From positions 1 to 36,993 of the forward strand of contig NW_014040055.1 of assembly GCF_001186125.1 (NCBI RefSeq): a stretch of 36,993 nucleotides of DNA, written 5' to 3'. Position numbers and translations under genes: made by a program. The notes under the pieces are model-generated. The model was not told where the DNA came from. It saw only the letters and a list, made by a program, of their open reading frames with translations, and did not search any database. The stretch is from Sphaeroforma arctica JP610. Lineage: Eukaryota. Shown in pieces: positions 5,816 to 36,993 of this stretch (its first letter is position 1; each line of letters opens with the position of its first letter).

Positions 5816-7389
5816 GCACTCTCTTTCTCAACAACGTAGATCGATAAAATGTATTTTTGCTAGCCATCAACACTTTAGACTCGCCAAGCGTCTTACTTCC
5901 TTTGGCTAGGCGTGCATTGCGGTATGCAATCAGTTTTTCTCTCGTTGGAGCACCCGATGCAAGGATTTGGCCTGATATGTTCGATGTTCTAATTCTTCTG
6001 GCACTGCACTGCTAATTATAAGATGAAAAATAGGGGATCAGTCAAAACTGTGCCGAGCTTCATCTTACAGAGAAATGACAATCATTCTCAAATATGTAAA
6101 ACTCACCTTGATACGTAGTCATTGTCGTTGTTGCTAGCTGTTGTTCTCATTCGACTGGATGTGCATTCCTTTTCTGCACTGATGAAAGAAGAGCCTGTCT
6201 CCAAATAATGTACATTTTCGTCAGCAAACACAAGTTTTATGGCCGAAAATGTACTTATAGTCTTTACACTAACTCAAATATAGTCTTTACATTAACTCAA
6301 ATATCAGAGATATACAGCCTGGAGAATATCCTTTCACTGGTTTTCTTGTCGCATCTCACAGGCGAATTTTCCAAAATCTGTGATCAAGAGGGCGATTTAA
6401 ACCATAAACTATAAATGTCAGTTTTTGTATTACATGTTGAAAATTTTCGATATCAATTTGATGCGGTTACTGAAATGGTTCACTCCCATACATCCGGCAG
6501 AATTAGGGGAGAGAATAAGGAGTAAAATATCTCTCACTTTTTCATATTGCTTGTTAATTTGATGTAGAGAAGCTCTCTCTTGATATTCCCCCGAATCAAT
6601 CGCTTTTTCCAATTGCGGCATCAGTTTTTCGATACACGTAGTATTGCGTCTTGCATTTTTCCTGCGAACGGATTTTTGTTTTAGTCGTGATCATTAAAAA
6701 AAAAGCCCTTGATTCTCTCATCAGCATCGATTCAACGATTTAAAGGAACCGAATAGACATACCTGACAGATGACGTTGATGGAGGTGGCGCATCAGGCGT
6801 TGGTATTTTCCGTAGGGGCGAATCCTTGACGGTGTCACTGTTTTGGTCCGCTGAGCGCATCTTCGTTGACGTTTTTTTTTGTCTGTGCGTTTGAGCAGGT
6901 GATTCACAACACTTGGAAAATAGCTACACAATATATCACAAGCAACAAACTTAACAAGGCACCATATATAAGAATCAATATGCATATTCTCTGCACGTCG
7001 AAGGCCAGAGCTTTGAGACATTTAATGGCGAATACTTGTGTGTAGGCTTAAACGTCGCAGGATACCTTATACTTTTTAGTCTAATTAACTAGAAATCTAT
7101 ATAAATACACTGGTCAATTCAGAAATAAAAAATTTCAAATAAATAATCAGCCCAGATTTAGTCCCTTTTTATATATTTATATATAACTAAAAGCACATAC
7201 GTTTATGACTAAAAACACATACTTTTATTGATAAAAGTATATGCGTTTCTATTTCTATCCACCTAATGTGCGTATGCCTACCAGTATACTAGTTCACTGT
7301 TCAAATATCGAAAGACTGTCCTTTTTACTCACATTATTATAGGTTCGATGTGACAATCTCGTGCCTGCTGTGCCGCCAACGATCAATGG

Positions 7390-9805
7390 TTACAGGTGAC
7401 AGCTACATGCTGTACCTGACCCCCCCTTTCATACTTAATGAGTATTATTTTTTCTTCTTTTTAAGAACACTTGTTTTGAAGAGTGTGGCGTGGTGAACTC
7501 ATGGGCATATTCGAATTGGGCACGCTGTTCGCGACTCCGTCACAGCGTCTTTACATGTCCCGCCTTATACGTAATAATGCTATACCAACTCAACACCTCT
7601 CAGAACGAATCTATCAACTGTGTGCAATACAACACGCCCGAAGCTGCGGGTACTCACCGACTCTAAGGTTGCTCGCCGCTATGCCAGAGTGTACAGGGTA
7701 CTCGCCTGCACTCTAAGTATATAGACATACTTGCCACCTACGACTAAACACTCGTGTTTTAGGGGTTTAGGGTTTGTTTCTTTCCTGATTTTCTTTCCAA
7801 TGCACTTATAGCAGCTTTGCATCGCGTCGTGTAGTGTTGTTCTTTAGATTTGCTGTATGATGCAACGTAGCATTCTCCTATAATAAAAATACTTCTACTA
7901 CTTGCAAACTGTTTAGATATCTGACTCGTTCCATGTATGTGTGTCAGCTAGTGTGAAAGCTATGCGCATGCCGTATATCTAACTAATAAACTTAGTTCAT
8001 GTGGATATCATATATCTTACTAATAAAACTTAATCTATGTACAAGTATTTTCTTAAAACAAACCTATGATATTGTATCATACATTCGTTCGTGCATTTGC
8101 CACACGCGCACGCAGAAAGAAGGCAACCCCGGCCAGACATACCATCAACCCAGGCTGCTTTAATCTTGTCCCAGCTGTCGCTGACGTCGACTCTCACGCG
8201 TCTGAATCAGCTTACGATATGCTGGCACTACGTTCGGATCGTCGAAGGCATCTGCTGTTACCCATGTAGGAGAGACTTCCAACCAGATAACCAAGTATTC
8301 TGATTACTGAGTCGCCTTGTTGTGGCGGTGTGATAAGATGTGTCGGAATGTCGATCGCTTTTCTCCCAAAAGTGATTTATCAAACGGTGGCTCCGTAGCG
8401 CGACGTACTAGCCTGATAATCTCAAACAGAACTGGACAGTCTTGAGCTCAGGCGGCTTGCTTTCGCCCTTTGCTCGTAGATGGTATTTCTGATTCTCCCG
8501 ACTGTGAACTGCGTATGGTCCAATCAATGATTTCGTGGCTTTGGTCGTAGCCCCTTGGGTATCATGACGTTACGCATCGGATCAGTAGCCTCCGCGATAG
8601 TATCACCAGGTAAGTCATCTGTCAAATTTGCGAACGGGACATGGCGGCGACCCAAAAAAATCACTGAAAGGTGCAGACTTATAGCGCCGTAATATCCAAA
8701 GGTTCTGATAAAACATAGTAAACGGTAGACGCTCATCCTTAGTTCCGGACAGCCAACACATAATGCGCGCGCACATTTGTAGGGTTTTTTTGTACCGTCG
8801 CTCTGCAGCACCCGAGGTCTGAGGGCAGTATGACTGAGATGTCTTGTGTATGATTCTGAGTGCCCGCGTAATCGATTTTACGTCTTTACGATAATATTCA
8901 CAAATTGGATACTCTCGTTACTCTGAATATTACGAGAAGAATCATGCTCATCAAACACAGACATTGATTCTGTCACCATGGTCTGTGCATCCTTTACAGG
9001 TTTTGCCCGAAGAATACAGTACCCCAACGCCACATCCAATAGATGTGGAATAAACTTGTTTCATATAGTGGATCAATGTGGCCACCATAGGAATGAGATC
9101 CAATTGTATATGATCGCACGGGTACCGTGCGGCAATACTCATTAAAGGATGGAATCCCTTATTCATAGTATTATTGCCTAAAGCACGCACGACATAATTT
9201 ACAGATCCCTTGTTCGAATTGTGCCCATCATTCCGTATGCGTTGCAAAGTTACCGCCGGCGCAGGATGCCCTTGTTCATGAAATTGCTATGTTAACTGTA
9301 CGCGACGATTTTCTTCCTCGTGCCCTGGATAATTGATCACTGTTGCTCCCACACATACTTCAGCAGCCTGTCCCGCAATTTGTCGTGTACGTCTAGCCAT
9401 CTCCTCCTGTGCCCAGTTGTCATGATAACGTCTAGCTATCTCCTCCTGTGCCCAGTTGTCATGATAACGTGTAATAGCTTCATCATATTCAGGCACTTCC
9501 TGAACCAGATCGCACCCGAACGATGGATTAACCTTCTAGCCAGAGGGAGGTGCAATACGTACAACACAGTATGCTCCCTTTCCACAGACTTGTGTGCCAA
9601 GTTTCAAGTATGTATGGGCCGTATGCGAGATAAGTAGCGGGTCCGTCTACATCAACGACAGGTGTAATGGAAACCACGGCGTCCGTGTGTTCAACGGTAA
9701 ATATATTGTTGCAAACGCCTTGTCAGCCAACACCTTGCGCAGTACCTTATGTATAAGGCGTCAGGGTGGGTTCATCCATGCACTGCATATACTCCTGTCA
9801 TATTT
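7390..9805 (-). mobile_element. Decayed 3' half of Gypsy family A (methyltransferase, integrase, chromodomain, 3' repeats)
   Basis: Collinear with 23800-26690: AWMNPP*RLIHKVLRKV..IYLPLNTRTPWFP (~9670-9785), KGFHPLMSIAARYPCDHIQLDLIPM (~9080-9165), chromodomain region ~8130-8350 and 3' repeats 7500-7760. Confidence 0.93.
9389..9471. repeat. In-frame 39-bp tandem duplication (RYHDNWAQEEI/MAR x2)
   Basis: ACGTCTAGC.ATCTCCTCCTGTGCCCAGTTGTCATGATA occurs twice; the homologous region at ~26310-26350 has a single copy. Confidence 0.9.
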
Positions 9806-10729
9806 AACTCAAGTGGCACACCATCGACCGGGAAATTCAACCGTACTGCCAAATACGATTGTGTAAAAGTCAGACTAACCAGGCTGACTATCGATGTCAA
9901 TAAGTTAACGTAAAAGAAAGTACGATTTCAAAGTGAATTTGCAGAATGTAATTTTAAGTTTAGCTTCAGCCCTTGATAATGAGCTAAAAGATTAGGGGAT
10001 TTAAGACTGAGACTGTTGTCTTTATGGCTCCGCTTTAATCACTCAATACTTCGGTCTAGATTTATTTGGTGTCAGTAACTAATATCAGATTTCATTTCAA
10101 TGGATGTTTGATATTTCATTCTATATCATTTCATGCCTCAAAACAATCTTCCAATCGCAATTACCAATAAAATAACTTTAAGTCCAACTTAAGAAAATCA
10201 AAAGAAATCAAAAACACAATGATGGTACAGTGAAATGTCTGTACCTATACCCCATCACATGGTACCTAGCTCTCTATCCCATTGAAGGCATAGACGGGCA
10301 CATCTAGTCGGGTGGCTAGGGAGGATCATTTTCATGCCCCATTTCTCAGTGGGCTATCTCGCGCTGGGAGTATTTGGTAATACAACATGTGTCATCAAGT
10401 GTCAATATCACCTGAGACTCACTCAATTGTTATATCCCAATATTCTGATGGAAAACATATCATTGTAGAAAAACCATCTTATCAATATCAACAGAGTCCC
10501 CGGCCTCTGTCGTATACAATTATATTTCCAAATATCCCAAAATAGATTATTTGTTTGTTTGCTTTCTGCCAATTCAATAGATCTATATTTGATTATTTGA
10601 TTATTATACAGATACAAATATCTACAATTGCGTTTCAACGTATACCAGGTTTTATAACCGTAAAAGCGTTTAAACGGTAATACGTTTATAGTATACGTTA
10701 CCATGTGCTTCTACTATAGGGATAATATT

Positions 10730-12720: not shown

Positions 12721-12730
12721 CTCCCCCTCA
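12721..12730 (-). promoter_or_regulatory. Polypurine tract of the Copia element
   Basis: Minus strand reads GAGGGGGAG immediately before TGAGAGAC (LTR start). Confidence 0.9.
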
Positions 12731-18239: not shown

Positions 18240-18273
18240 ATTGATAGCGCGAGATCAGAGTGACCTGATAAGT

Positions 18274-19998: not shown

Positions 19999-20025
19999 AT
20001 ATATATATATATATATATATATATA
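19999..20025. repeat. (AT)n microsatellite interrupting the family B integrase
   Basis: Pure AT run directly after ..TPDSVTG in the integrase core. Confidence 0.9.
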
Positions 20026-21119
20026 CCAGTGACTGAATCCGGTGTCTCGTTCATTTGTGTCTGTACCCAGTTAATTGAGTATGGCCACAAGTCAGCATCG
20101 TCTAGTAACACTCCACGCATGAACCTCTTCATCTTTCTGTGTCGCACCTCACTCGCACCTTGTGTCTGAGGCTTATAAGGTACACCCATTTTGTGGCATG
20201 ATCTCGCAACGAGCAACAATGCCGTCATGACGTCTCCTATAAACTCACTACCGTTGTTGGTACATACAATAGCTGGCCAGCCGAAATCTGCGAAACACTT
20301 ATAAATGCACTCAGCCACTGTTTACATTGATTTGTCTTTCAAAGGATATAATACATTATATCTTGAAGCGACATAAAAAATGTGGCAGGCATACTTATCT
20401 TTCGTGTGTTCGGACGTGGGTAGCTCCACCAAATCAATGATAACCCTGCCCCATGGCTCGTCTTCCGATACACTCCGCAATGGGGCATATCCATAGCGCT
20501 TGATCCGGTTAACTTCGCAGTCGTTGCATTCGTGATACACCTGATATATATTGCTTGAGCTATGGGTGTACAATTCCGTATCTCTTACCTTCTTTCTCAG
20601 TCCTAGCCTTATCCATGTGTTTAAGTGTATGATTCTGGTTTAACCACTTCAGAATGTCATCCTCCGATGATCTTGCCGTATCAAAGTCTGTAGGTGAGGA
20701 TTCCACTACTACATCACCAGGACTCGAAGACTCGTCGTGTCCAATCTCGTAAAGACTCGTCTGGTCCAATCTCGCCTGAAAGGTCGGCCGTGTGAATTCT
20801 ACTAATGTTCTCTTTGTCCATTAGTTGAGTTACATGGTCGTATACATTTGGAAAATCATTCATCAACTGTTTGAGTAGCCTGGTCTCGGCTTCGTATGCA
20901 GTTGCTCTGTCAGAACGTATCTTCTTGTAAAATGCTTTTGCTAGTGATGAGTTCCTTTTCGCTTCTTTAAGATCGGATTGTACCTCTGTGACGCATACTG
21001 CAGGTGCGTGTGTCGCCCCAGCCTCTCGGTGAGACTTAGGTGTCAAGAGTGAAATCTTGGATTCTTCGACCTTACGTTTGAAGGTCTCGGATGGTGTCCA
21101 TTTGTTGGTTCCAACTGGA

Positions 21120-21500
21120 CTTATTCGACATATTATTGTATGTCGCCAAGGAGTCTTCTGGACTGCACGGGTACCCTGATAGAGGAAAGTATCTACCTCT
21201 CTATCCACATATATGGGCTCACATTGTATCATCGATATCAACTGTGGTAGCCATTTATCTGAATGTCTTAGGGGACAACCCAACGTGATGGTAGCATCTT
21301 GTATATGAACATAATTCAGCAACTGTGGTATTAACAACCACGGTGGATTCTCATCGGATAAATCGATTTGAAACCCATCACCGTCTGGATGTTCCAGAGT
21401 CCGGTATCACGGCAGTTGCGCATTATGACGTGCTGCAAACATATCAATGGTATGTGGTCCATGTATGTTGTCTGCAATTTTAAACCACCTAGGATTGACC
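21120..21500 (-). pseudogene. Dam/DIRS-type amino (N6-adenine-like) DNA methyltransferase domain in family B pol
   Basis: Single frame: HGPHTIDMFAARHNAQLP*YRTLEHPDGDGFQIDLSDENPPWLLIPQLLNYVHIQDATITLGCPLRHSDKWLPQL..TPWRHTIICRI; NPPW at 21338-21349; one in-frame TGA at 21407. Confidence 0.85.
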
Positions 21501-23974
21501 ATCCGATCCGTAGCTAGCAATTCTCGGACCATCTTGTTGAAATCCGGTACAAAGCGTGACAGCGTATCCGGTAAGTGATTGTGTATGCCCGGTATATGTG
21601 TTATGCTGAAAGAAAATTTCGCGATCGTATCGTGCCATCGACTGACCAATTGTGAATTGGGGTTCATGTCTTTTAAATGTTGCAACGATTTCTGGTCGCA
21701 CAGTATATTAAAGTGTGTACCATAAAGGTAGTCCTTAAAATGAGTGAGTGCAGTTACAATAGCTAGTAGCTCTTGTTGCACTGTCGGATAATTGATTTGT
21801 GACGAGTTCATAGCCCTGCTAAAGAACTGCACGTATCTCGGCTTCCCGTCAATCATTTGGTACAGCACGCCTCCCAACGCCATGTCGGATGCATCTGTAG
21901 CCACCATGGAGGGCACTCCATCTTTTGATGACTGGGCTACGGGGGCTTGTTAAATCACTGTTTTGAGCTGCTTAAAGGCATCATCACACTCTTTGGTCCA
22001 CAACGCTCCTAGTTTGCCTTTGTGACATCTTAATGTCCGAAAGGTTTAAGGTAGCTTGCCAGGTGTAGAACTCCATCTGACAGGAAGTTGACGAATCCAC
22101 ACATGCTATTAACATCTTTGCCTGTAGTGAGAGTTCTCCAATCCAGTAAGTGTTCTACCTTTCCAGGATCGATCATAGTACTTTCCCCGGATACACGGTA
22201 GCCCAACAGCTGTATCTCGTTTACACCGAAATGACATTTCTTGCTGTTGATCTTAAACTTGTGTTTGTTGAGCCTTGCCAGTACTTCCCTCACAACTCTG
22301 TTATGCTCCTCTTTAGTCTTGGTAAACACAACAATGTTATCGATATACACCTGCACATTGTCCATGTCTCTAAACAGGCCCTGCATGATGTGTTGAAAGA
22401 AGGCTGGTAACATATGTAGACCAAAAGGGGCTCTTTTGAATGAATATTGTTGTCCATCCGAAGTGAAGGTAAAATACTTCCGGTGTGGTTTGTATATTTT
22501 CATTTGATGGTAGCCTTGCTTCAAATCGATGATCGAAAATATCTTCGCTCCTTCCATTCTTCTCAGCAATTCGTTGATTCTTGGTAGATGAAAGTTGTAT
22601 GTGGGTGTAAGATCGGTTATAGGACTCATATCCAAACACACGCGAACCTTCTTTAACGTACCATCAGAGCTGAACTGGTCTACAGCCAAGAGCGCTAAGT
22701 TGACAGGGGTAGGTTCGTGGTTGACTGCGATTACTCCGTTTTCCAACCATGCTTTAACTTTTTCTCGTACCACTTGTTCATGATGCCACGCTACGTAGTT
22801 CCGCGTTGGACATTTCAACTTCGAAAAGTCTACTTTTATCAAGTCTAAGCTCATGTATCCGTTGTTGAATTTAAACTGAGCCCAGTCGGTGATCTTTATC
22901 TTGTTGTTCTCAAAAATAAGATCCTTTAGCTTCTCTGTGAATTGGGGTATCATTTCTTTCACAGTCTTAGAAGGCTTCTATACAGGCTTCAGCAGATTGT
23001 CATCTGACTGATCTTTCTGTCGGTCAATGTTTGTCGGCAAACAGGTACTCGTTATACCTAACGACAACAAATCTCCCATCCCCACTATTAAATCGTAATC
23101 TGGCGAAGTGTTACACAACTGCTTTAGTCATTGTGGTCCGTTGATCTGTAAGGGTAAACCTTTAGTCTACGGCCATGTCATGACACGTATTCTCCCTTTC
23201 GTCAGCTAATTTTAACATAGTAGGTTCTTATTTACGAGTTACATCAGTTATCTTACAGAATCTCGATGATATACATGAAATTTGCGAGCCCGGATCCAAC
23301 AACGCTTTACAATCTGCTCACTTCGCAATAAAATGTTTACATTTCTCTGCGTGCCTGCCATTCCAGCGTCCATTCGGCTCAAGTTGGGTCATGCGCCAGC
23401 TGCAATCTTTCTCAGCACAGTCCTTGGTCTCCTTGTACTTCGGTTTAGGAGGATTGGCTGCCTGATTAGACTTATTGCCCAAAGTCCCGCGAGTGTTGAC
23501 ATTGTTCTTTTGACCATCAGCACATATATTAGAGGAGGTCATGTGCGTTATAGATACATGGCTTCCGCTACACACAACATAAAAGAGTCACTCGCATGCC
23601 TACACGAAATGTTGAGATCACATTCAATTGAATGTGATCTCATTTAATAAAAAACATAATAATGTACGGATAAATATAAGGGGCGGTTACCATTATGTTA
23701 TATAATGATTCTAATAACATTGTACTATCCTCTTTCTTCTATCATCACAGGGTTGACCGCGTGCGACACCCTTGTATGTGACGCTCACCAACCCTGGGTA
23801 TCAGTGACAACTCCCTGTTGTTCCTGACCATATCGTATTATACCATTAAACCTATTTACTCTGGTCTGCTCTTGTTCTTAATGACTCGAAGTGCTATGTA
23901 TGATATGCGCGTGGTGTGATGTCCTCATGAGCATACTTGAGATGGGCAATCTTTCCGTGACTCCGTCACAGCGC

Positions 23975-24495
23975 CTTACATGTTCCGCCTGCCACACCAA
24001 TAGGGTTTCACATGTTCCGTCGTCTACGTAATAGTGTCTCAACTGTATCGCCTCCTGCGTAACACATCGCACATATTCCGCCTGCTGCGTAATAATGTCG
24101 TACACGTTCCGCCGTCTACGTAATAGTGTTACCCATGGTATCGTTTGGTACGTAATAATGCTATCCAAATAAGCACCATTCATAGCGACTATGCAACACG
24201 CTTGAGGCTGCGGGTTCCTACCGACTCTCAAGTGTTCGCGCAAAGTTCAATGCTGCGTGTCCTCAGGGTTGCTCACCTCTGAGTAAGAGTCAACAGGGTA
24301 CTCGCCTGTACTCTCAGCATCTAAACAACCATACGGTCTATTCTGTCAACTATGATAGTGCCATGCAACACGCTAGTGAGGCTGCGGTTGCTCACCGACT
24401 TCAAAGTGCCTACGCAAAGTTCAATGCGCCGTGTCCTCAGGGTTGCTCGCCACTTAGTTAGAGTCAACAGGGTGCTCGCCTGTACTCTAAGCATA
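23975..24495. repeat. Tandem repeat arrays in the family A 3' non-coding region
   Basis: Four ~31-bp ACATGTTCCGCC..CGTAATAGTGT units (23978-24130) and two ~130-bp units starting ATGCAACACGCT at 24191 and 24363. A shorter version is present at 7530-7760. Confidence 0.85.
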
Positions 24496-26429
24496 TATAT
24501 ATACTTGCCACTCACCACCACCACTCGTGTTTAGCGACGTTTGGCGTCGTGTGTTTGTTTGTTTCTATGTCTGTTACATTAGTGCTGCGCGTATGTTATT
24601 ATGACACTAGTGTAAGCTCTTGTATGTTTATATGTGCGTGATGTCTTCGTATAGTGTATGATGTAGCAAATTACTTATATCATTTCCGTTGTTGTCGAAT
24701 ATGTATCATGCTTATCTATCGTAATGTATGTAAGCAATGTGTCTTCTAATATTGATCTGTGCAGCTCGTGCATCATATATAGTCTAATACAGGTATCTAC
24801 TCTATATATAACAGCTTCTATTAAAAGAATATTACTGCTCTAACATCGACTATCGGTTATATGAATGTGTTGTCATCACACATGAGCGCAGCAACGTCGC
24901 AGCCTCGGCCAGACATACCATCGACCCAGGCTGCTCTAACCTTGTACCAGGCGTCGTTGTCGTCGACTCTCACGCGTTTGAATCTGTTTGCGATATGCGG
25001 ACACGACGTTGGGATCGTCAAAGGCATCGGCTGTCACCCATGTAGGAGATCCTTCCAACCAGCGTACCAAATATTCCGACTGTTGAGTCGCCTCATTATG
25101 ACGGTGCGATATGATGTGTCGAAATGTCGAACCGCCCTCTCTCCATAGAGATTCATCAAGTGGTGGTTCCGTAGCCCGATGTACAAGCCGAATAGTCTCC
25201 ACATTCACGGGTCGGTCTCTGAGCTCAGGCGGCTTGCTGCCATTCTTTGCTCGTAGATGGTATCTCTGATTTTCCCGACTATAAATCATCACATACGGAC
25301 CAAGCAGTGGTTTTATGGCTTTGGTCGTTGCTCCCTGAGCGAGTATCATGACGACGTCCCCCATCTTAAATTCAATCAAATCAAATTTACGCATTTGATC
25401 CGTAGCCGCTGCCATGGCATCAGTATACTTAATCGTTTCTGATGAAGTTTTGGTAGTATAGTCTTCTCCAAATCATCCAGCCTCTTTAACCATGCATCAT
25501 TCGAGGTAGGAATATGACCAGATAAGTCATCAGTCATGTTTGCAAACGGGACATGTCGTCGACCAAAATAAACGCTGAATGGTGCTGACTTGTGACGTCG
25601 TGATATCCGAAGGTTCTGGTATAACATAGTAAACAGTAGACGTTCATCCCACAACTCCGGACTACCAACACACAATGCGCGCACGAATTTGTGGATTTCC
25701 TTATGTCGGCGCTCCGCCGCGCCCAACGTTTGCGGGCGGTATGGTTGGGACGTCTTGTGTATTATGCCCAACGCTCGTGTGATGAATTTGACAATATTGG
25801 TTACAAATTTGGTGCCCTCGTCACTCTGAATCTTACGAGGAAATCCATGCTCACCAAACACTGACACTGACTATGCCGCCACTGTCTTTGCATCCTTTGC
25901 AGGTATCACCCGTAGAATAGAGTAGCCCGACGCCACATCAAGCACATGTAAAATATATTTGTTTCCTCTAGTGGATGTGACCGCCATAGGAATGAGATCC
26001 ATTTGTATGTGATCCCAGGGATACCGAGCGGTAATATTCATTAAAGGATGAAAACCTTTCTTCATCGTATCGTTGCACAAGCATGTGCGACATAACTTGC
26101 GGTCCTCTTCTGTGATTGGAAGCATCTGGAACCAGTTATGTCCATCGTCGCGCATCTGTTGTGCTGTAACTGCTGGGGCCGGATGTCCTTGTTCATGAAA
26201 TTGCCATGTCAACTTTACACGACGGTTCGCTTCCTCGTGCCCTGGATGATTCATCACTGTAGCCCCCGCACATATCTCAGGAATTTGTGCAGCTATCTGT
26301 CGCGTTCGTTTCGTCATCACCGGTTGTGCCCAGTTTTTCTGATAACGTGTACCAGCGTCTTCACATACAGGTTCCTCCAAGCCTAAGCCACACCAAAATG
26401 ATGGATTGACTTTGTACCCAGATGGAGGG

Positions 26430-26830
26430 CCAACACGTGCCACGATGGTATACTCCCACGGGTATTTACCACAAGCCTGGGAGCCGTGCTTCAAGAATGT
26501 GTGAGCCGTACTTGGGATAAGTAGCGGGTCTGCTTGCATCATCGATAGAAGTAAAGGGAACCATGGCGCACGTGTGTTTAACGGTAAATATATTGTTGCC
26601 GACGCCTTGTCCTTCATCACCTTACGCAACACCTTATGTATAAGACGCCACGGTGGGTTCATCCATGCGTTGTATTTACTCCAGTCAAACTTATACGCCC
26701 CGCCATCCTTGTCGTATGACCAGTATTGGCAAAGCTGAGCGTTATGACTCGAGGCAAAAGCGTCGACGTCGTTTGGTCCAAAGTGCTTCTGGATCTGGCC
26801 GAAGAAATCCGGAAACAACTTCCAACATGA
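26430..26830 (-). CDS. Dam/DIRS-type amino (N6-adenine-like) DNA methyltransferase domain in family A pol, uninterrupted
   Basis: Within ORF 25871-27307, between RNase H and the integrase HHCC: FGPNDVDAFASSHNAQLCQYWS..GAYKFDWSKYNAWMNPPWRLIHKVLRKVMKDKASATIYLPLNTRAPWFPLL. DVDAFAS at 26750-26770, NPPW at 26648-26659. Confidence 0.9.
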
Positions 26831-28776
26831 CGTATAGAACACCGCGGGGTAGTTGACATCCGCCGTGCCCTCATGAACACGACTCCACATGTCTGGCAAC
26901 TTGTTCAGTTCTCCATGTACATGTGTAGTAGTAAAATTGAACTGTGCAATAATATGATGCCATCGCTGCAACATACTATTCAGCTTTAGCTGAGTGTTCA
27001 TATATATGAGAGCCTTATGGTCGGTGTGTACAGTAAACCGTTGTCCAATGAGATGATCATGAAAGCGAACCAAAGCACCGGTAAGTGCTAGTAAATCTTT
27101 CATCGGGGTTGCATATATCTGTTGTGCCTTGTTGAGAGTTTTCGAGAAGAACATCAGGTAATGTTTGCGTCCGTCAATCAATTGAAACAATGCGCCACTA
27201 ATTACATAATCGCTTGCATCCGTCTCTAACTCAAGTGGTACACCAACAACACGAAAGTTCAACCTGGCTGCCGATACGATAGCCTCCTTCATCTGATCCC
27301 ACGCCAATTAATGTTCTGGCTTCCAACGATCCCCAATGGGCTCTTTTGGCTTAAGTTTAGAGAATGTTCGGAGTGGAGCTACCTTGTGTGCAACGTTCGG
27401 TAAATGCTCATGTAGAAAGCTTGCTAATCCTAACGCAGAGGCAATATCCCTTTGACATCATGGAACTGGCCAGTCAATTAAACGTTGCTGCTTCTCATGA
27501 TCCACGTCAATGCCTTTAGCTGATATCTTCTTTCCCGGGACCATCGCCTCTCGCACCGCAAAGTGACATTTCTTCTGATTAAGTCTGAAGTTATTCTCCG
27601 TCAAGCGTCGAATGACTTCTTGAACCGTAGCAATGTGCTCCTCGTAATCGTCCGATGCAATTATTAGATCATCAACATAGCATTGCACGTCCAGTCCTGC
27701 CATCAAATTACTGATTGTACGTTGAAATTGGGACGTGAGTGTCGTCAATCCAAAGGGAACCGACGTAAACGAGTACTGCTGACTGATTCATGTAAACGAG
27801 AGAATGTGCTGCGAATCGACGTGCACCGGTAACCGATGGTACGCGGCCGATAAGTCCAACGTGGTGTAGTAACGCTTGCCCTTCAAGTTGCTGCTGATTT
27901 CGTTGACCTTCGGAAGCGTAAACTGATCGCCCGGAATAAGAGCGTTAATCTGCCGCAGATCCAAACACACGCGCACCTTAATAAGTTCACCCGACGGTGT
28001 GAATGATGGTACTGCCAACAAAGGAAGGTTAATGATCGACGCCGATGTTCGACGATTGGTGATCAGTTCGTGTTCCCATTTGCTTACTTGCTTCGTTACA
28101 TGTGGTTTGTATTTGTCCGATACAAAATTTCTTGTCTGCCGACGTAGGCCCAGGAGTTTATCCCGAGGAATAGGGAGTGACACCTCACTACCCGGGAGTG
28201 TGCAGCGAGCTGCATCCAGAATAGTGTCATTAGCATCCAGGTATTGGCGTAGGCGTGCGCGTATATCACCTGGCTTGGACAAGTCTGGGCCATTCGAAGA
28301 TTGATTGGTTCCAGTAGTTCATCCATAACATTACGATTAATCTCTGGAAATGTAAATACTAATCCGGATAAGCCTAATCCCAACCCACCCATAATATCCA
28401 TACCCAAAATTATATCAATGTTATCCGGTAGGTTCATAAGTTCAAATGTACAACCCTCAGTAGCAGCTGACCCGTACTGGACCTTTGTTGCTTGTGTTTT
28501 GCCCAAGTGTGGAGTCCTGAAGGCTTTGTCCGCCAAGTATATGTGACTATCCTTGGCCGGTGGTGTAATAGAGAGGTGTGCCTTAGCTGCAGATGCCTGA
28601 CGGTTGCCTGACGGTTGGCCCCCGTGTCAATAAGGGTGCGCATGTCATGTCCGTTCACTTGCAAAGTAACATATACACGGTTGTTAGTAGGAAACAGTTT
28701 ATCTTTTACTGCAAATATTTTTTGTTGCCGTACGACCAAATGACATGCACATGTTCACATCAGGCACCCCAGCCTG

Positions 28777-31153
28777 TCAGTCCGAATCTGTTCCAACTTC
28801 CCAACCATCGGGTGTCTGCTCTTCTTCCATCAACTCATCGTCACTCTGCACATACGACTCCTCGACCAAATCATGAATGTGCATCACTTCAGTCTCTCCC
28901 GTCTCGGTGGTTGGTTGATCAGGCATAATATCACCATCCACTAAGTTAACACGGGGTCGGAAATTAGTACCCGATCCGTGAGTCCCGCGTGTCGATGTGT
29001 TTGTAGCCGATGTACGTTGAACTGTAGCCCCACCATTTTTTGTGCGGCTACCTGTGCTAGTCTGGACCGGTACTCGTTGTAAGTTAGGACAACGACTTGC
29101 ATGTCCTGGTCCCGGCGGAATGTTTTGTTCACATGGCCGACAACGAACCCCTGGGTTCGATATAGGCGGTGCATGCGGGTTGGCGCGTGTATTCGCTCCC
29201 GTACGCAAATTTGAGCGTGATCGCGAGTTCCCCAGAATTCGTAGAGGTCGCGAAAACTTGTCTTGGGCGATTTTCTTCTGCTTTGTCAATGTTCACACGG
29301 GATACATCGCGCATCTTTTCAGTCGAGCAGTTTCGCCACTGTGGATGCATTCGAAGAGTATCCCGGTAGTACTCCCCACCTGCAGCTTGGCGTATATGGT
29401 TAAGTGTACCATGGTTGCGGTATACTTGTAGGGGGTTTTCATACCGTCGCATTTCCATGAACTCCACCTGGCGTTCAAAATCACGAATCTGAGTATCAAG
29501 CGGCACCGATGGCTTCAGCTTCATGCATGCTAACACCTGGCGGTATGCATTATCCTCCAGATCTTGCTCTTGTGTACGTACAATAAAAGCAGTGGCAGCC
29601 TCAAATGTCATAGACTGTAATTTTTGCTCGTTTTTCACAATAAAATCCAATAGCGCCTTAGGGACCCCTTCATGCTGTAGAGCTCGATGTAAACCCATTT
29701 GCATATGAATCGGTTCTAGTTTGTGGAATCGCGCATTCTTATGCCAGTCCAAGATAAAAGCATGTAACTGTATCTTCTGCGGATTGTCCAAATAATAATT
29801 GCCCTGTGGGTTGGGTGGCCATTCCTTCGGTGTTCGTTTGTCGACCGTCTTCAGAGTCTCATTCGACGCACGAATTAGACCCCGTAGTGCACGCGCATCG
29901 TCTATGCGTCCATCCGCTTCTGCCTGCATCATTCGTTGGGTCAGTTGAAAAACTTGCATTTTCATCTCGGCCGCTGTCGATGCAGTAATGCTAGGCTCCA
30001 TAGGTTCCGAGCCCTTATGACGTTTCACTGGCTGTGGGTCTTCCAAGTAGCGGTCGTGATGAACAGGAAGGTGCTTGCGGTATGCAATCGTATCAATAGG
30101 GCATTCGCCGAATCCTGAGAATTCTCCTGTAGCTCATCTGGTGAACGTGGTTTACGGTGACGTTGCAACTTATCACAAAATAAGTTCGTTGCTACACGAC
30201 TCTGGTTCATCTGTTGCTACGGGGACTTCATTACTCTGCGGAAGGCATCAAAGGAACGGTTTGCCGACGACGATAAATTCCGAGGAGTGTCCATGTCCAA
30301 GTGTAAATCCGCAGGTTCCAAAAGAAAATTCTACCAGGCGATTTCACCAAGGGTTTCGAGTCCTGATACCAATCCGGACCATTAGGCGGCATCTCATCAG
30401 GGGTCGGAATTGTTTGTGCCCGATTTTGAGTGTTTGTTAACAATCGCGCTCTGCGAGTAGCATGGAGATTATCGTTCGATGCCTGATACCAATCCGGACC
30501 ATTAGCCGGCATCTCCTCAGGGGTCGGAATCGTTTGTGCCCGATTTTGAGCGTTCTGTAACAACCGCTCTTTGCGAGTGATCTGGACATTACCGTAAGAA
30601 GCCACCTGAGGTATAGGCTTCGTCCGTCCAATTTTACGTTTCACGGGGCTAATTTGGTTCATGTTGTTGACCCTGCCTGAGTTGGGTATTGAAGAGCCCA
30701 ACGTTGTTGCACTGTCGGTTCGGTCTGAGTCTCAGAAAAGTCCTCATCCACTGTCGCCTGGTCCAAGTCCTGGGGTGTAGACGTGTCAATATCCGCCAGT
30801 GACAACTCACGGAATTGGCGGAGTTGCTCTTGAATAAGATGAATATTGTCCGTGGCCTCCTGCACATGCATCATCGTATTCAGGTGTCCTTCTACATCAG
30901 AAATCCAATTTGGGGACTGTTGAAGCTTACCCAAGGTTTTAATTGAGTATTGGCCCTCCGAAAGCAAACGGGTTAATTCCAAATGGATTTCGACCTTCTT
31001 GGCATCTTCAGGTGCAGGTTTCTTGGCAAGTGCTGACTCCACCTTATCGCATAGCTCGGTTAAACGGCGAAGATTTCGAATCAACCGTCTCAACAACCGA
31101 TCACAAGCTTTCTTACCCACCATTGGCAACGGTCTAGTCTTGGGTCCCGTCAT
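28777..31153 (-). pseudogene. gag: Putative long gag of family A (helical N-terminus, repeats, capsid-like region, CX2CX9HX3C knuckle), frameshifted
   Basis: ORFs 30659-31153, 30231-30701, 29129-30046 and 28777-29289 (CRPCEQNIPPGPGHASRC) lie upstream of the protease on the same strand. Confidence 0.65.
30362..30600. repeat. Coding tandem repeat, 2 x 120 bp (40 aa)
   Basis: RLL.N.QNRAQTIPTP.EMP.NGPDWYQ occurs twice at an exact 120-nt period. Confidence 0.95.
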
Positions 31154-31263
31154 TGTTGATAAAAATAAAAATAAAAATATTAAATTGAACTAAGTTGTTT
31201 CTTAGTTGATTTAATCTTCAAAGAATGTAGTATAATAAATACAGTAGTTCGGTGACTTAAAAA

Positions 31264-31679
31264 TGTAGTCAAAACCAAGTGACACTTAATAAAGAGTATT
31301 AAGTCTGAAAAAGGTGAACTCGGTCAGAAGTGCCGCTATGAACGACGCGTCTGCTGTATTTATTAATCACGTTCCTATGTGGGACGAGATTTTCTCCGGC
31401 AGATTGTGAAAATCTCCGTATCTAAGATTATGGTCTCCTAGTTACTAAGTAATGATGACATCTGATGAGTCATCATTCTTTCTCACTAACTTATATATTC
31501 CACTATCTAGTCCGGTCCCCGGGTCCGTCCTTCAATAAAATTCTCTTAGGCCCGAGCCTCTGATTCGGTCCTAAATATTTCCCTTAGGTTCGGTCCTGTG
31601 GTCCGATCCTAAATTCCTCTTGTCAGTCCGGTCCTCTGGTCCGGTCCTAAATCCCCGTATACGGTACTTTTGGGTGACA
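31264..31679 (-). repeat. LTR-like repeat (~31280-31679) with candidate primer-binding site (31264-31277)
   Basis: Minus strand: GGACCGGACC-type tandem subrepeats, TATATAA (~31491-31497), AATAAA (31359-31364), end ..GTGTCA, 2 nt, then TGGTTTTGACTACA. Two more copies lie at 2571-2770 and 3405-3794. Confidence 0.65.
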
Positions 31680-31801
31680 GCCGATGCCTTTGACGACCCC
31701 AACGTCGTGCCCGTATATCGCAAACGGATTCAAACGCATGAGAGTCGACGACAACGACGCCTGGTACAAGGTTAGAGCAGCCTGGGTCGATGGTATGTCT
31801 G
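31671..31801 (+). repeat. Inverted 131-bp copy of the family A chromodomain end and stop codon
   Basis: Reverse complement of 24910-25040 (WVTADAFDDPNVV..RRQRRLVQG*). Confidence 0.95.
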
Positions 31802-31820
31802 ACAAGCACCTTGCACTTGC

Positions 31821-32585
31821 TTATTCTTTTTTTCCTTTGTTGTTTCCCGTACCCGTATGAGAATCTCGACCGTTACCTGGTCCTCCATTCGTGTTGGGCA
31901 TTGTCTTCTTAGTAGATGGTGTGAATTTCACCACAGAATTCGGCCGTTTCGAAAACGTCTGGTCTGCTCTCGAATAAAATTCAGTCCAAGACAAGTCGGC
32001 GAGTTTCATGATGCCGTAAGTTGGCCCTTTAATCGAAATCTCACGTACCTTGTCTGGGAAAGATTGATTGATATCTGCGTACAACACTTCCTGGTCTTTT
32101 CGGTGAAAAGCCGCCCAAAAAATTGTTTGTACCCACAACACGCACATACTCAGTTTGTCTGGTGACATTTCTTGCGTCTCAGCGCGTGATATATGGGTGT
32201 CCAGTTCCAAGAGGTAGTGTGACACTGGTGTTCCTTCGTCCGGTGGCACCATTATCGATACCAATAGTTCCGGCCTAGGATCTGTTGAGAACAGATGGAC
32301 TATCATCTCGCTCTGCTCCTCTCACGTCTTCAGCTTTGTTATAGCAGCCTTAGCCTTCTCCAACTTATTATTTTTATAAGATGACGGCTTAAAACTCTGT
32401 TGCGCAGCCTCAAACCATAGGTTCTTATATAAATTCGCAGAAAGCATGATTTGACCAAACTCTTTCAAAGCTCGCGACAAAAACGCTAAGTTACTTGTAT
32501 GGATTGGGTCCTTATGGTCTTTTCGATCTGGACGATACGTAGTGGGTAACTTACCTATGTCCTTGACGAACTTCTTACTGTCCAC
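31821..32585 (-). pseudogene. gag: Gag fragment distantly related to families B/C
   Basis: SIMVPPDEGTPVSHYLLELD / DQEVLY / LADLSWTEFY align with SILTEPVENTPIQSYILKLD / DRESLY / LSRLTREQFY at 35060-35335. Confidence 0.7.
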
Positions 32586-33554
32586 TGACTTTTCGGCGTG
32601 TACGATGTGTAACTCCGTATCGATCTTGGATGGATTGGAAGTGCCCCGCCATTGTCATTATCAAGCTGGCTTGCTCTATCTTCTCTTGATCCATCGCTAG
32701 TGTAATAGCCGGGCCTCCACATTAGACTCTATGTTATTAACGTACTCTTAAGCAGTACGTAAACTATAAACGCACTCTTAATAGTACGATGAACTTAAGT
32801 TTCCTAAATGGGTTAGATATTTGGACAAGGCCATTAAAAAGGCCCCAGTAAAATACCAAACATAAGATTTGGTCTAGTTCTATTAATAGAACTAAATATA
32901 CTTTCCAAATCTATTTAAATCTGAATACTTCGGCAGCGAGATGGCTCAACCGAACATAGGTTTCTAAGGACTATTAGCGTTGCTTAGTTTATCCTCCGTT
33001 CAGCCAACCAGATGTGCCAGTCTGATGAAGGCTAAGTCGGTAATTCTTGATAAGTGGCAAGTTATTGGTTAATGCAATAACTATGGACATCAGGAGTATT
33101 TTTCTTTTTTCTATTCTTTTTTTTCTAAAGATAGGATTTTATGAGACTCTCGGATTCGCCCCAACGAAACATACCATAAATTCTATTAGAGCGACAACGA
33201 AAAGCTAAATAAGATCCCTTAGGCGAAAACAGTACTGCGAGGATTATATATAGACAATGTCTCAGCCTCACAATCTCTCAGAGTATTGCTGTTTTCACGA
33301 GGCATACCAACTTTACTAAAAGACTCATTTCGTTTATTTATTTCGAATTTAACTATACTTAGACTTAACCTAAGCGTTTAATTACTCTAAGGCGTTAATA
33401 TCGCCTTGATAGACCGAAACTTACATTTTTTTAAAGTTAGCAAAGGTATTAATTACTTAGACTACTTAAACGTAAAGGTATATAACTACCACAAAATTTT
33501 ACTTAAGCACAGTCATTCCTTAGAAGAATAAGACTGAAGTCATAAGTTAAAATT

Positions 33555-36500
33555 ATGACAAAGAAAGACAATACGCCGGCAAAGAAACGCAAGGCCGAAC
33601 GTAAAAAGATGGAAAGAGAAGCTGCTAGCGCTGCTGCCGATGCGTTTAACCCCACCGTAGCCGAAGCACTTGACTCCGACAATAATAGTCAGGACAATGC
33701 CTCAGATAAGGATGTAGCCACTCCGATTAAGGAAACTACTTCTACAGATAGAGCCCGAGGGCCAACTATTGCCTCAGCTTCGAAGCTGCATTTACGAAGC
33801 CAAGAAGTGAGACAAGGGACAAGTCTCAAGACGCCTCAACCAATTCTTCTGACGAAACTCAGAAAGAAAGGTCCCTAATTATAGGGGACAAAGACAAATC
33901 TCAGAAGGTACCTATACAGGAACCAGAAGAGGAGGCAAGCTCAAGTGGCAACCCCGAATCTACGTCCGAGACCAATGAACCAACGCGCATAAGTAGGTTA
34001 ATTACTGAAAACACTGATCTTAATAATCAGTTAGCCGCCCTTATGAAAGGCATGACTGTTGAACATGTAGATCGAATGTATAGATCAGGAAAACATACAC
34101 AGCACTTACGCGAGTATGTTTCTCCGGGCATTACTGAAGCCCTACAGAAGTGGACAGAACATCGACTGGCAATTACGCCCGAAAAGCGTAAAGGCCTGAG
34201 CGTTACACCTGTGGCAGATGAGCCAGATGTGCTCAGCGTATCTATACCTTACGAGGTACTACCACCACAACACCAGGCTAATTATTCGCCTGTTCAAATG
34301 CCCGGCCACGAGTCGCCCGTCCTTGATGGTATTATAGACCCAGAGGCTGGTAAAAATACTCCGCCACCTATACCCAACTGGGATGACAATCGTCGGAAAC
34401 CAGTTAAGACGGGGTATGTCATCCAGACGCATGAATCACCCAAGATTATAATACTAACTACTATTCAAGGAACAGAGCACCGAAAGGCCTCGACCATGGG
34501 CTTTACAAGGGGTAATTAACACTCCCGTAAACGTGTTAACGATGTCGAATTTAATCGCTTCGATCACACACCATTACACCAGCCTGCAGAGGATTTCCAC
34601 TCTGACGAGGTGACCGAACTTAACAAATCGGTCGACGATTACACCATTAAGATGGAAATCGCCCATGACAAGCACCGTGCTGATGACGTATCATATTTTG
34701 CTAATATGATCGCGATCAAGCAGAAGCGCGACCACCGGGATAAACAGAAATACAAGTGACAGATCAGTCGACTTAAGTCGAACTGGGATGCCAACAGCAA
34801 GCAGGTCTAGTATATAAACAACCATGACCTCGACACGCTAACCCGTACGCTTAATGCGTTTACGGTCATGCTGGAGACGAATGATATCTCTCCCCAGCAA
34901 TGGATTTCTGCTTTAATGCAATCGGTTGACCCTACAGGAACAAGTTACTTGATCCTGCAGCGACACCAGCATGCGCTAGACACTTGTTGTGATTGGCCAG
35001 CTGTGTGTTGGTTGGTTACGTCCTTATTAAGCAAGGACATGCGCAGTCCAGGACTGAGTTCAATCTTAACTGAACCAGTTGAGAATACTCCTATTCAGAG
35101 TTATATTCTGAAACTTGATGCTGACCTTAAACGTCCAGATATAACAAAGGACAAGGCGCAGCGATGATACGAGTTCCTGGTTAAGCATGTTTTTTTGTCA
35201 GAACATAGGGAACAACGACCGTGAAAGTCTGTACACCGAGTTGCGACGTAAATACGCGATTGAGGCTCGAGACAAGGGACATGAAACAAAGTATCATCTA
35301 TCTCGACTTACGCGGGAACAGTTTTATGATACTGTATCCACTCTTTTCCCCGCACACCGAATAACCTCGAAGGGAAAGGCGATAAATAAGAAACCGCGCG
35401 AGCTCCCTGATCAAGGATACCTCTCACGCCAGACGTCAGATGATAAACCTCATCAGACGCGTCCTAACCAGACACGTGCTCGCGACTCCACTCAATCAAC
35501 GCGACCCAATAAACGAACACGCGCGGAGGCGAAGAACAAGGAACCTCCATTTAAGGATATTAAGAAATGTGCCGACGCACAGTGTGGGTATGACATGTAC
35601 CAATTGACCCCTAACGGTTATTGGAATGGCAGACATGCACCCACCTGTACACACTTACTTACTAAGCGTGACAAGTGTGAGAAGACCAATGGTTATCACG
35701 CCAAGTCTTGTGACAAAAAGCCCGACATTAAGTTGGAGTGAAAGTACTACCAGGTACAATCGTTACAAAGGAAATACAACGACTCCTTAGATGAGCGCGT
35801 AATAATCCCTGTATATTGCAATGGAAATAAAGTCCTTGTATTGATTAATCCTGGTTCAGAAATTTCATGTATATCCGACCGCTTTGCACTATTGAAAGAC
35901 ATTGAAAGGCGAACTCAAACTACTCACCTAATCTTAGCAGATGACAAAACTTCTCAGTGTGATACCATGACCACAGATGTTAAAATCTCACTGGCCGATG
36001 ACAGAAATATCACTACCCAAGCTGTGATAGTTAAGATGCCACAGAAGTTCGACTTAATAGTCGGAATGAGTGATTTACTCACTCTAGGTATAACCGTAAC
36101 TGGTTTACCAAATAACATAGATCCATTAAAGGATCAATCAGACGATAACTGTCTGAAACCACATAAGCCCCCGTCAGACACAGTCACGGCATTAATACCT
36201 GACTTTGCGGACAAAATCATGGATCTGATTCTAGTAAATAAGAAGATAAAGATCACAGATTGGGCAAAATTCCGGTTTAACGACGGATATGTCAGCCTTG
36301 ACTTAACCAAGGTAGACTTTACTAAGCTCAAATGCCCTTCAAGAAACTATGTTTCTTGGAGACACGAAGCTGTAGCTAAAGAACAAGTTGAGAAATGGTT
36401 ATCCGATGGGGTAATCGAAATCAATTACCAACAAACGCCAGTTAACTTAGCAATATTGGCAGTTGATCAACACAATTCTGACGGAATATTTAAGAAAGGA

Positions 36501-36993
36501 GTAAGTCTAGATATGAGTCCAATAAATAAGTTATTGCCGACTCATAGTTTCCATCTCCCTCGTATAAACGAGTTACTGAGACGAATGGAAGGTGCTACGG
36601 TGTTTACATCCATAGACCTAACACAGGGGTATCATCAAATGCAAATTTATGAACCCCATCGTAAGTGCTTTAGTTTAACCTGGAAAGGTAAACAATACAG
36701 GTTTAGAGGTGCACCTTTCAGGTTGCACTCCTTACCAGCATTCTTCCAACAAGTAATGGAGGACATGTTTGCAGACATGTCTAACGTGTAAGTCTATATA
36801 AATGACATAGTCTTCTTTTCTAAGACTAAGGGCGAACATGCCGTATTAGTCAGGCGAGTCCTTCAGAGACTCAACGAACAAAACTTCAAGATTAACGAGA
36901 AGAAATGTCACTTCGCCATGAGCGAAATACAGCTCTTAGGCTACCGAATATGTGGGGAAGGTATTAAAATCGACCCCGGTAAGGTGGAACACC
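33555..36993 (+). mobile_element. Ty3/Gypsy element C (relative of family B): gag, protease and RT, running off the window, defective
   Basis: Broken gag 33555-35741 with CADAQC..WNGRHAPTC; LINPGSEISC; RT closely similar to B (KIKITDWAKF..LKCPSRNYV..FHLPRINELLRRMEGA..IDLTQGYHQ..VYIND..KKCHF..IDPGKVEH). Confidence 0.92.

What the first reader, a model, noticed from the sequence alone, without database searches (positions are those of the whole stretch)
24936..27307. Ty3/Gypsy chromovirus-like pol with an in-frame Dam/DIRS-type DNA methyltransferase between RNase H and DDE integrase
Seen: one 478-aa ORF runs from RNase H (ETDASD..TDHKAL..NKLPDMWSR) through ~130 aa carrying DVDAFAS.HN, FDW, MNPPW and LP-x5-WFPLL, and into the integrase HHCC finger and first catalytic Asp. 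GPY and a chromodomain follow. Established: DxFA and [DNS]PP[YFW] are the SAM-binding and catalytic motifs of amino-methyltransferases (6mA/4mC), and this phage-Dam-like domain follows RNase H in DIRS tyrosine-recombinase retrotransposons; it is not part of the canonical Gypsy pol. Inference: an integrase-type retrotransposon packages a DNA writer together with a chromatin reader, perhaps to mark its own cDNA or integration site (self-marking or escape from silencing). I cannot confirm from here that it is undescribed.
Basis: partly seen in the sequence, partly recalled or inferred. Interest (0 to 1): 0.92.

Follow-up and report, generated by a model that had tools for sequence, protein, structure and literature searches.

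The report
Gypsy retrotransposon with adenine methyltransferase, chromodomain
This is a broken copy of a repeated jumping gene, likely from the single-celled animal relative Sphaeroforma, whose enzyme chain contains a methyltransferase-fold domain that likely marks the element's own new copies; this kind of element was described in a 2026 preprint, but the chromodomain seen here was reported there as absent from this lineage.

Summary
Observation confirmed. A decayed Ty3/Gypsy pol on the minus strand runs PR-RT-RNase H-Dam-like MTase (PF05869, E 1.9e-9, DxFA and NPPW intact)-integrase-GPY-chromodomain. It is not a nested insertion: a second family in the window and 16 database polyproteins have RH-Dam-rve in one chain. 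RT and Dam trees give congruent clades with Abeoforma proteins, apart from the DIRS-like proteins sampled. The closest hits (77-84%) are named Sphaeroforma arctica. The architecture is published as 'DAM-LTRs' (bioRxiv 10.64898/2026.05.21.726589), including an ichthyosporean lineage, and this scan noted DAM-LTRs before in other genomes. Three points go beyond the preprint's main text. (1) It says this lineage lacks chromodomains, but a divergent one is present here and in Abeoforma (38.6 and 36.4 bits, controls 2.1 at most; dN/dS 0.07), with a degenerate aromatic cage. (2) 15 of 16 clade members keep NPP[WF], against 0 of 120 sampled DIRS-like proteins. (3) The modelled domain is a bare Rossmann core whose nearest solved structure is the RNA cap methyltransferase PCIF1/CAPAM. 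Activity and substrate remain untested.

The parts
31264..31670 (-). Candidate 5' terminal repeat/LTR (TG...CA-bounded about 414 bp; the last few bases are replaced in this copy). Not found again at the 3' side.
   Evidence: Loose ends with variable flanks behind 31670 in the rows shown for 3 of 4 runs; diverged copies at 3429-3786 and 2533-2753; no match at the 3' end
28777..31152 (-). gag-position ORF pieces (no convincing Pfam hit; gag inferred from position)
   Evidence: even contig cover with the rest of the element
28611..28670 (-). Aspartyl protease active-site stretch (LIDTGA); the rest is frameshifted
   Evidence: gag-asp_proteas E 0.0047
27308..28222 (-). Reverse transcriptase and connection, Ty3/Gypsy type, with in-frame stops
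   Evidence: RVT_1 E 2.4e-13 and 2.7e-4; one frame with RH-Dam-IN; RT tree
26876..27304 (-). RNase H (Gypsy-type RT_RNaseH)
   Evidence: Pfam E 2.3e-24; the only PDB hits are Ty3 Pol/RT
26420..26836 (-). Dam-like (PF05869) amino-methyltransferase domain; motif I DAFA starts at 26764, motif IV NPPW at 26648-26659
   Evidence: Pfam E 1.9e-9; PHROG 111 DNA methyltransferase E 6.2e-8; AF2 pLDDT 92.5; class I MTase fold, best match CAPAM Z 9.9; dN/dS 0.19
25480..26197 (-). Integrase HHCC finger and D,D-35-E core, one in-frame stop
   Evidence: rve hits; residues read from the ORFs
25170..25400 (-). GPY / SH3-like integrase C-terminal domain, after a frameshift
   Evidence: GPY invariant in alignment A2; Foldseek to Ty3 integrase 7q5b, E 5e-3
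24975..25130 (-). Divergent chromodomain (group-II-like: Trp kept, first and third cage aromatics absent)
   Evidence: 38.6 bits on an HMM from non-clade Gypsy chromodomains, controls 2.1 at most; SUV39H1 chromodomain Z 8.4, rmsd 2.1, 59 aligned; Atlas Chromo 0.93; dN/dS 0.07
23681..24935 (-). Long 3' non-coding region with tandem repeats; this copy is cut at 23681, where other copies continue with other sequence
   Evidence: homologous to 7280-8160; shared loose ends before 23681 in 4 of 4 runs
7280..9806 (-). Second, more decayed copy of the same family (Dam C-part, IN, GPY, chromodomain, 3' region), about 60% aa identity
19286..23280 (-). Second DAM-LTR family (B), RT-RH-Dam(NPPW)-IN-GPY-weak chromo, about 35% aa identity to family A
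33546..36993 (+). 5' part (gag-like, PR, RT) of another family-B-type copy, running off the window

Best explanation
This is a decayed copy of a multi-copy Ty3/Gypsy retrotransposon of the ichthyosporean DAM-LTR lineage, whose Pol carries a Dam-like domain that likely methylates adenines in the element's own reverse-transcription product, so that new copies would enter the genome already marked with 6mA. Shown: the domain order, the intact SAM-binding and catalytic motifs, purifying selection on Dam and chromodomain, and co-inheritance of Dam with RT. Predicted: a minimal Rossmann core with no separate target-recognition domain. Inferred: as part of Pol it is packaged in the particle and reaches its substrate (nascent cDNA or RNA:DNA hybrid) by being tethered to RT/RNase H or integrase. 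Also inferred: after integration, host AMT1 keeps the ApT mark and the copy stays transcribable (the preprint's model), while the cage-less chromodomain helps hold the integration complex on chromatin without classic HP1-type methyl-lysine reading.
For: Motifs and Pfam above cut-off. Class I MTase fold at pLDDT 92.5, 140 of 156 residues aligned to the CAPAM core. All 14 of 14 aligned domains hit a phage DNA-methyltransferase family. NPP[WF] is kept in 15 of 16 rows of the Dam clade. dN/dS 0.19 for Dam, like integrase (0.19-0.22), and 0.07 for the chromodomain (one pair, 83 and 51 codons). RT clade support 99 and Dam clade 100/99, with the same members where both domains are present. The preprint reports more 6mA-marked and more highly expressed DAM-LTR insertions than other LTRs in S. 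arctica and A. whisleri.
Against: No activity has been shown: the preprint's eukaryotic DAMs gave no 6mA in dam-minus E. coli. Its 6mA enrichment is a correlation and could follow from transcription and AMT1 alone. The nearest solved fold is an RNA methyltransferase, and rRNA MTases (Z 7.9-8.2) score level with T4 Dam (Z 7.6). 8 of 29 LTR-type domains and 120 of 120 sampled DIRS-like domains lack the catalytic Asn, so the domain can be kept without the canonical motif. ApT content of the element is unremarkable (1.13 against 1.06 in the Copia element).
Confidence: 0.5

Rival explanations
1. The domain is a PCIF1/CAPAM-like RNA writer that puts m6A or m6Am on the element's own genomic RNA (or on the RNA strand of the hybrid), aiding its stability, translation or packaging. 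The 6mA seen on genomic copies is then host AMT1 following transcription.
For: Both structure searches put CAPAM/PCIF1 first (Foldseek E 1e-4, TMq 0.58-0.60; Z 9.9 against 8.2 for the next). Iyer et al. (PMC4738411, passages) place DIRS MTases in the PCIF1 clade. This would explain the negative DNA assay. The preprint's main text has 0 mentions of PCIF1 or CAPAM. An orchid Gypsy element with an m6A RNA demethylase domain is a precedent for RNA-mark cargo (PMC9289625, title and passages).
Against: At sequence level the kin are phage DNA methyltransferases, and a Dam profile finds no PCIF1 among PDB sequences at E 10. CAPAM needs its helical domain to bind the cap (PMC8287941 passages), and this domain has none. 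CAPAM may top the list only because no PF05869-family structure appeared among the hits.
Confidence: 0.18
2. The domain is a non-catalytic or weakly catalytic SAM- or nucleic-acid-binding module that serves the RT/RNase H/integrase machinery structurally, as proposed for DIRS MTase domains.
For: Iyer et al. call the DIRS copies likely inactive. 0 of 120 DIRS-like and 21 of 29 LTR-type domains have Asn at motif IV. No E. coli activity. Earlier scan notes describe Rozella DAM-LTRs that lost the motif but keep the domain (unchecked).
Against: In this clade NPP[WF] is kept in 15 of 16 rows despite only about 30-45% identity to the window's domain; the exception is a Sphaeroforma fragment with a deletion.
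Confidence: 0.27
3. The arrangement is a one-off chimera: a DIRS fragment nested in, or mis-assembled with, a Gypsy element.
For: The locus is a nest of broken elements and lacks a paired LTR.
Against: RH-Dam-IN lie in one open frame. The same junction is present in family B at 35% identity and in 16 single database polyproteins with RH, Dam and rve. The RT sits with Gypsy, apart from the DIRS-like rows. Four runs hold many 85-99% alike contigs over all 30 bins.
Confidence: 0.02

Closest known systems
Ichthyosporean DAM-LTR lineage (Fernandez-Moreno et al., bioRxiv 10.64898/2026.05.21.726589; whole main text read, figures and supplements not seen)
   Same: Ty3/Gypsy RT with a PF05869-type Dam domain; hosts S. 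arctica and A. whisleri; NPP pocket conserved. The window's RT and Dam group with Abeoforma proteins.
   Different: The preprint says this lineage 'lacks chromodomains'. Here the element and Abeoforma P0009 carry a divergent chromodomain that stays below Pfam thresholds.
Chlorophyta DAM-chromovirus-like clade (same preprint)
   Same: Dam plus chromodomain in one Gypsy pol
   Different: Different host group. Other Dam-plus-chromodomain polyproteins found here (hosts unnamed) have Pfam-positive chromodomains and fall outside the window's RT and Dam clades; whether they are the chlorophyte clade was not tested.
DIRS1-type tyrosine-recombinase retrotransposon MTase domain
   Same: Homologous domain directly after RNase H (119 of 119 DIRS-like proteins hit the Dam profile)
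   Different: DIRS-like RT is a separate clade. The sampled DIRS-like domains have F/Y-PP in place of NPP. This element has a DDE integrase, GPY and chromodomain.
PCIF1/CAPAM cap-specific m6Am RNA methyltransferase
   Same: Nearest solved fold; NPP-aromatic motif
   Different: No WW or helical domain, 18-21% identity, no profile-level sequence match
Group II retrotransposon chromodomains (PMC3350952, passages)
   Same: Lacks Y24 and Y48, keeps W45
   Different: Described there as found only in plant Gypsy elements. In this clade 7 of 10 aligned rows keep the first aromatic and 0 of 10 keep the third.

Membership tests
Ty3/Gypsy LTR retrotransposon | pol order PR-RT-RH-IN with Gypsy-type RT/RH | tested here: met
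   Ty3 is the top PDB hit for this RH and for the family-B RT; RT tree
Ty3/Gypsy LTR retrotransposon | HHCC finger and D,D-35-E integrase | tested here: met
   read from ORFs 25871-27307 and 25376-25870; rve hits
Ty3/Gypsy LTR retrotransposon | paired direct LTRs, PBS, PPT, target-site duplication | tested here: inconclusive
   A 5' TG terminus with variable flanks, but no second copy at the 3' side, where this copy is cut at 23681. No clear PBS. No genome held.
DAM-LTR (ichthyosporean lineage) | PF05869 Dam domain inside a Gypsy pol | tested here: met
   above the gathering score
DAM-LTR (ichthyosporean lineage) | RT and Dam group with Sphaeroforma/Abeoforma/Pirum elements | tested here: met
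   RT clade of 12 rows, support 99, includes Abeoforma P0009 (FastTree). Dam clade of 16 rows, 100/99, includes 3 Abeoforma and 1 Sphaeroforma named rows.
DAM-LTR (ichthyosporean lineage) | no chromodomain (as the preprint describes it) | tested here: not met
   Chromodomain found in the window element and in Abeoforma P0009. I read this as a descriptive statement that the data contradict, not as grounds for a separate lineage, because a named Abeoforma member shares it.
Chromovirus | chromodomain at the integrase C-terminus after GPY | tested here: met
Chromovirus | RT inside the chromovirus clade | tested here: inconclusive
   The tree has no named reference chromoviruses and its deep forks are weak
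Group I (HP1-like, methyl-lysine-binding) chromodomain | aromatic cage Y24, W45, Y48 | tested here: not met
   S / W / G in this copy; definition from PMC3350952
DIRS (tyrosine-recombinase retrotransposon) | DIRS-type RT | tested here: not met
   16 DIRS-like RTs form a separate clade, support 99
Active N6-adenine DNA methyltransferase | motifs I and IV intact on a Rossmann fold | tested here: met
Active N6-adenine DNA methyltransferase | SAM-dependent 6mA formation on DNA | not testable with these tools
   the preprint's E. coli assay of representative DAMs was negative
PCIF1/CAPAM | WW and helical cap-binding domains | tested here: not met
   The 156-aa model is core only, and no such domain lies in the ORF by Pfam

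The most novel reading that the evidence does not exclude
The ichthyosporean DAM-LTRs are an overlooked chromodomain-bearing lineage that kept a catalytically intact, tether-dependent PCIF1/CAPAM-like enzyme which methylates the element's own RNA or RNA:DNA hybrid: a retroelement-encoded adenine writer acting on RNA, not the genomic-DNA Dam it is taken for.
Probability: 0.17. Interest if true: 0.75.

Novelty: already known. Interest (0 to 1): 0.32.

Why it matters
The architecture and lineage are in a 2026 preprint, so the headline is not new. Two additions are usable. The chromodomain corrects that preprint's description of the very lineage on which its 6mA data rest, so writer plus chromatin tether may be more general among DAM-LTRs than its domain counts suggest. 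The bare-core, CAPAM-like fold with an intact NPPW offers a reason why the enzyme did nothing on E. coli DNA and points to the substrates to test next (RNA, capped RNA, hybrids, with RT or integrase attached). If activity were shown, it would be a transposon that writes an activating mark on its own progeny.

Tried and rejected
No whole genome is held, so copies could not be counted or compared genome-wide. The word-index search on the Dam region among longer proteins found nothing (38 candidates); on the whole ORF it gave 1 hit of 3946 candidates. Both were insensitive, since the full HMMER search found many relatives. The PDB sequence search with the Dam segment gave only chance hits, as did the Dam profile. 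Metagenome and prokaryote contig scans gave no Dam-bearing locus: 0 of 8 stretches, 0 of 113; the 4 loci have no Dam hit. The LTR search by alignment in both orientations found no partner for the 5' repeat. The sequence that continues other copies beyond 23681 is not in the window. No tRNA genes. No RNA holder listed, so expression was not assessed. Dinucleotide content showed nothing special. The place look-up of earlier findings was empty. The Atlas search with the Dam segment gave mostly unnamed eukaryotic clusters and one cluster with 14% Dam. No complex prediction was run. DIRS sampling is biased: all 120 rows are neighbours of one protein, labelled DIRS-like from their RT-RH-Dam layout and tree position (recombinase genes not checked), so the direction of transfer was not tested.
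Full report
Observation. The 478-aa frame at 25871-27307 (-) is there. It carries RT_RNaseH (E 2.3e-24), Dam PF05869 (E 1.9e-9, 37.9 bits, cut-off 28.1) and the start of rve. All quoted motifs are present, except that LP-x5-W is x6. Read in one frame, 28318-25376 holds RT, RH, Dam and the integrase with 4 in-frame stops. The protease lies upstream in pieces, and GPY plus chromodomain follow after a frameshift. This copy cannot make Pol.

It is an element family, not a chimera. The window holds a second copy of the family (7280-9806, about 60% aa) and a second family B (19286-23280, 35% aa over RH-Dam) with the same RH-Dam junction and NPPW. Four of 4 runs laid have contigs over all 30 bins of 23300-31900, mostly 85-99% alike. 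One 471-base contig spans the whole Dam domain with 62 substitutions and no gap in each run. A full HMMER search with the ORF gave 150 listed hits, 30 of which match a Dam profile. I scanned 28 of the 150 with Pfam, chosen by eye for Dam coverage plus a few controls: 23 have Dam, 16 have RH, Dam and rve in one chain, and 8 have Dam and a Pfam Chromo hit. The closest full relative, P0002, is one 1288-aa PR-RT-RH-Dam-IN chain.

Host and lineage. I looked up 30 of the 150 hits. The closest fragments, P0005 (84%), P0037 (83%), P0010 (77%) and P0115 (50%), are named Sphaeroforma arctica JP610, and P0009, P0022 and P0026 are Abeoforma whisleri. The host is therefore likely S. arctica or a close relative. 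In an RT tree of 125 rows (87 other Gypsy, 19 Dam-bearing, 16 of 120 DIRS-like, 3 window; FastTree), the three window RTs fall in a 12-row clade of support 99 in which all 9 database rows carry Dam, including Abeoforma P0009. The DIRS-like rows are apart. A Dam tree of 47 rows (IQ-TREE LG+G4) recovers those 9 rows and both window domains, plus 5 further rows absent from the RT tree, at 100/99. Dam has thus travelled with this RT. Deep forks are weak and no named chromovirus references were included.

The methyltransferase. AlphaFold2 on a 26-row alignment gives pLDDT 92.5. Foldseek ranks human and zebrafish CAPAM/PCIF1 first (E 1e-4, TMq 0.58-0.60). The wide structural search agrees: CAPAM Z 9.9 over 140 residues, then rRNA adenine MTases Z 7.9-8.2, T4 Dam 7.6, M.TaqI 7.5. 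The fold is a class I MTase core with motifs I and IV 35 residues apart and no separate recognition domain in the modelled stretch. The roughly 65-residue linker to the zinc finger was not modelled; in P0002 it is about 30 residues. By sequence the kin are phage enzymes: PHROG 111 in 14 of 14 rows, and no PCIF1 match by profile. Motif IV starts with Asn in 21 of 29 LTR-type domains and in 15 of 16 rows of the window's clade, but in 0 of 120 DIRS-like neighbours of P0001, which have F/Y-PP; that DIRS sample is narrow. Between the two window copies dN/dS is 0.19 for Dam (83 codons), 0.19-0.22 for integrase and 0.07 for the chromodomain (51 codons) (one pair, Nei-Gojobori-type counts, stop codons skipped).

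The chromodomain. Pfam gives only E 0.058, and none of the 12 clade proteins scanned reaches E 0.01. An HMM built from 86 chromodomains of Gypsy proteins outside the clade scores the window tail 38.6 bits and Abeoforma P0009 36.4. Ten of 16 clade rows score above 5 bits at the C-terminus; 5 of the other 6 end before or inside the domain, and 1 full-length protein (P0004) has no hit. The best of 259 controls is 2.1 bits. The model's C-terminal part matches SUV39H1, Rhino, Oxpecker and CBX chromodomains (Z 8.4, rmsd 2.1, 59 aligned; rmsd 1.6-2.5, though no Foldseek row reaches E 0.001), and the Atlas returns Chromo clusters at 0.93. The cage is S/W/G here. In the clade 7 of 10 rows keep the first aromatic and 0 of 10 keep the third. 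That resembles group II chromodomains as defined in PMC3350952 (passages), so HP1-type methyl-lysine reading is unlikely for this copy (inference).

Termini. Other copies end near 31677 with variable flanks, giving a 5' TG terminus, and 31264-31670 recurs diverged at two other places in the window. It is not found at the 3' side, where this copy stops at 23681 while others go on. Paired LTRs, PBS and TSD are unresolved.

What is known. bioRxiv 10.64898/2026.05.21.726589 (whole main text read; figures and supplements not available, and they may already show this family or its chromodomain) reports DAM-LTRs in five lineages. Chromodomain-bearing LTRs make up 30.9% of its DAM-TEs. It describes an ichthyosporean lineage in Pirum, Abeoforma and S. 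arctica that 'lacks chromodomains', more 6mA and expression on DAM-LTRs than on other LTRs, no activity in dam-minus E. coli, and a model of marking RT intermediates that then recruit AMT1. Its screen used hmmsearch at E 1e-5, which likely explains the missed chromodomain (inference). Iyer et al. (PMC4738411, passages) put DIRS MTases in the PCIF1 clade and call them likely inactive; the preprint's main text never names PCIF1 or CAPAM. CAPAM is an RNA cap m6Am writer that needs its helical domain (PMC8287941, passages). Gypsy elements with a cytosine MTase are in PMC5890265 (passages). I found no paper that reports a chromodomain in this lineage (searches, listings only apart from the preprint) or that links DAM-LTR domains to CAPAM. 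Earlier scan notes report DAM-LTRs in other genomes, two of them with the catalytic motif lost (unchecked).

Mechanism and verdict. Most likely the domain is a Pol-tethered N6-adenine methyltransferase acting in cis on the element's cDNA or hybrid, seeding 6mA that host AMT1 maintains (0.5). Rivals are a non-catalytic binding module (0.27), an RNA writer (0.18) and a chimera (0.02). The feature is real and already described. The chromodomain correction and the substrate hypothesis are modest, testable additions. Interest 0.32.

Noticed in passing
window 31671-31801: A 131-base inverted copy (96% identical) of the element's own chromodomain end (24910-25040) sits exactly at its 5' terminus and replaces the last bases of the terminal repeat.
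   Followed up: partly
window 12200-18791: A near-complete Ty1/Copia element on the minus strand with LTRs of about 525 bp that are 96% identical, and a related solo LTR at 4212-4559; it has no Dam hit.
   Followed up: partly
window 31821-32654: Two minus-strand ORFs (166 and 110 aa) with no Pfam hit, lying between the inverted fragment and the family-B copy.
   Followed up: no
window 23330-23520: A very high-copy short repeat (summed contig depth about ten or more times that of the element); no tRNA gene called.
   Followed up: no
window 1445-1925 and 5069-5798: Long inverted repeats (84%) with internal 159- and 248-base tandem duplications overlapping unidentified ORFs; possibly a decayed DNA transposon.
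   Followed up: no
window 10796-12208: Minus-strand ORFs without a Pfam hit that by eye resemble the 3' part of a non-LTR retrotransposon, cut by the Copia LTR (not tested).
   Followed up: no
P0006, P0007, P0013, P0014, P0015, P0019, P0020, P0023, P0025, P0044, P0053: Dam-bearing Gypsy polyproteins from unnamed hosts are scattered over several RT branches (Dam label needs 9 changes, at least 7 forced by starred branches) yet lie on one side of the Dam tree away from the DIRS-like rows. Several have lost the catalytic Asn. They may be lineages beyond the preprint's five, or ordinary Gypsy relatives may have lost Dam repeatedly.
   Followed up: partly
window 30355-30594 and 23999-24500: Tandem repeats inside the element: a 120-base in-frame duplication in the gag region, and 174-base and 30-60-base arrays in the 3' region that vary in copy number among copies.
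   Followed up: no
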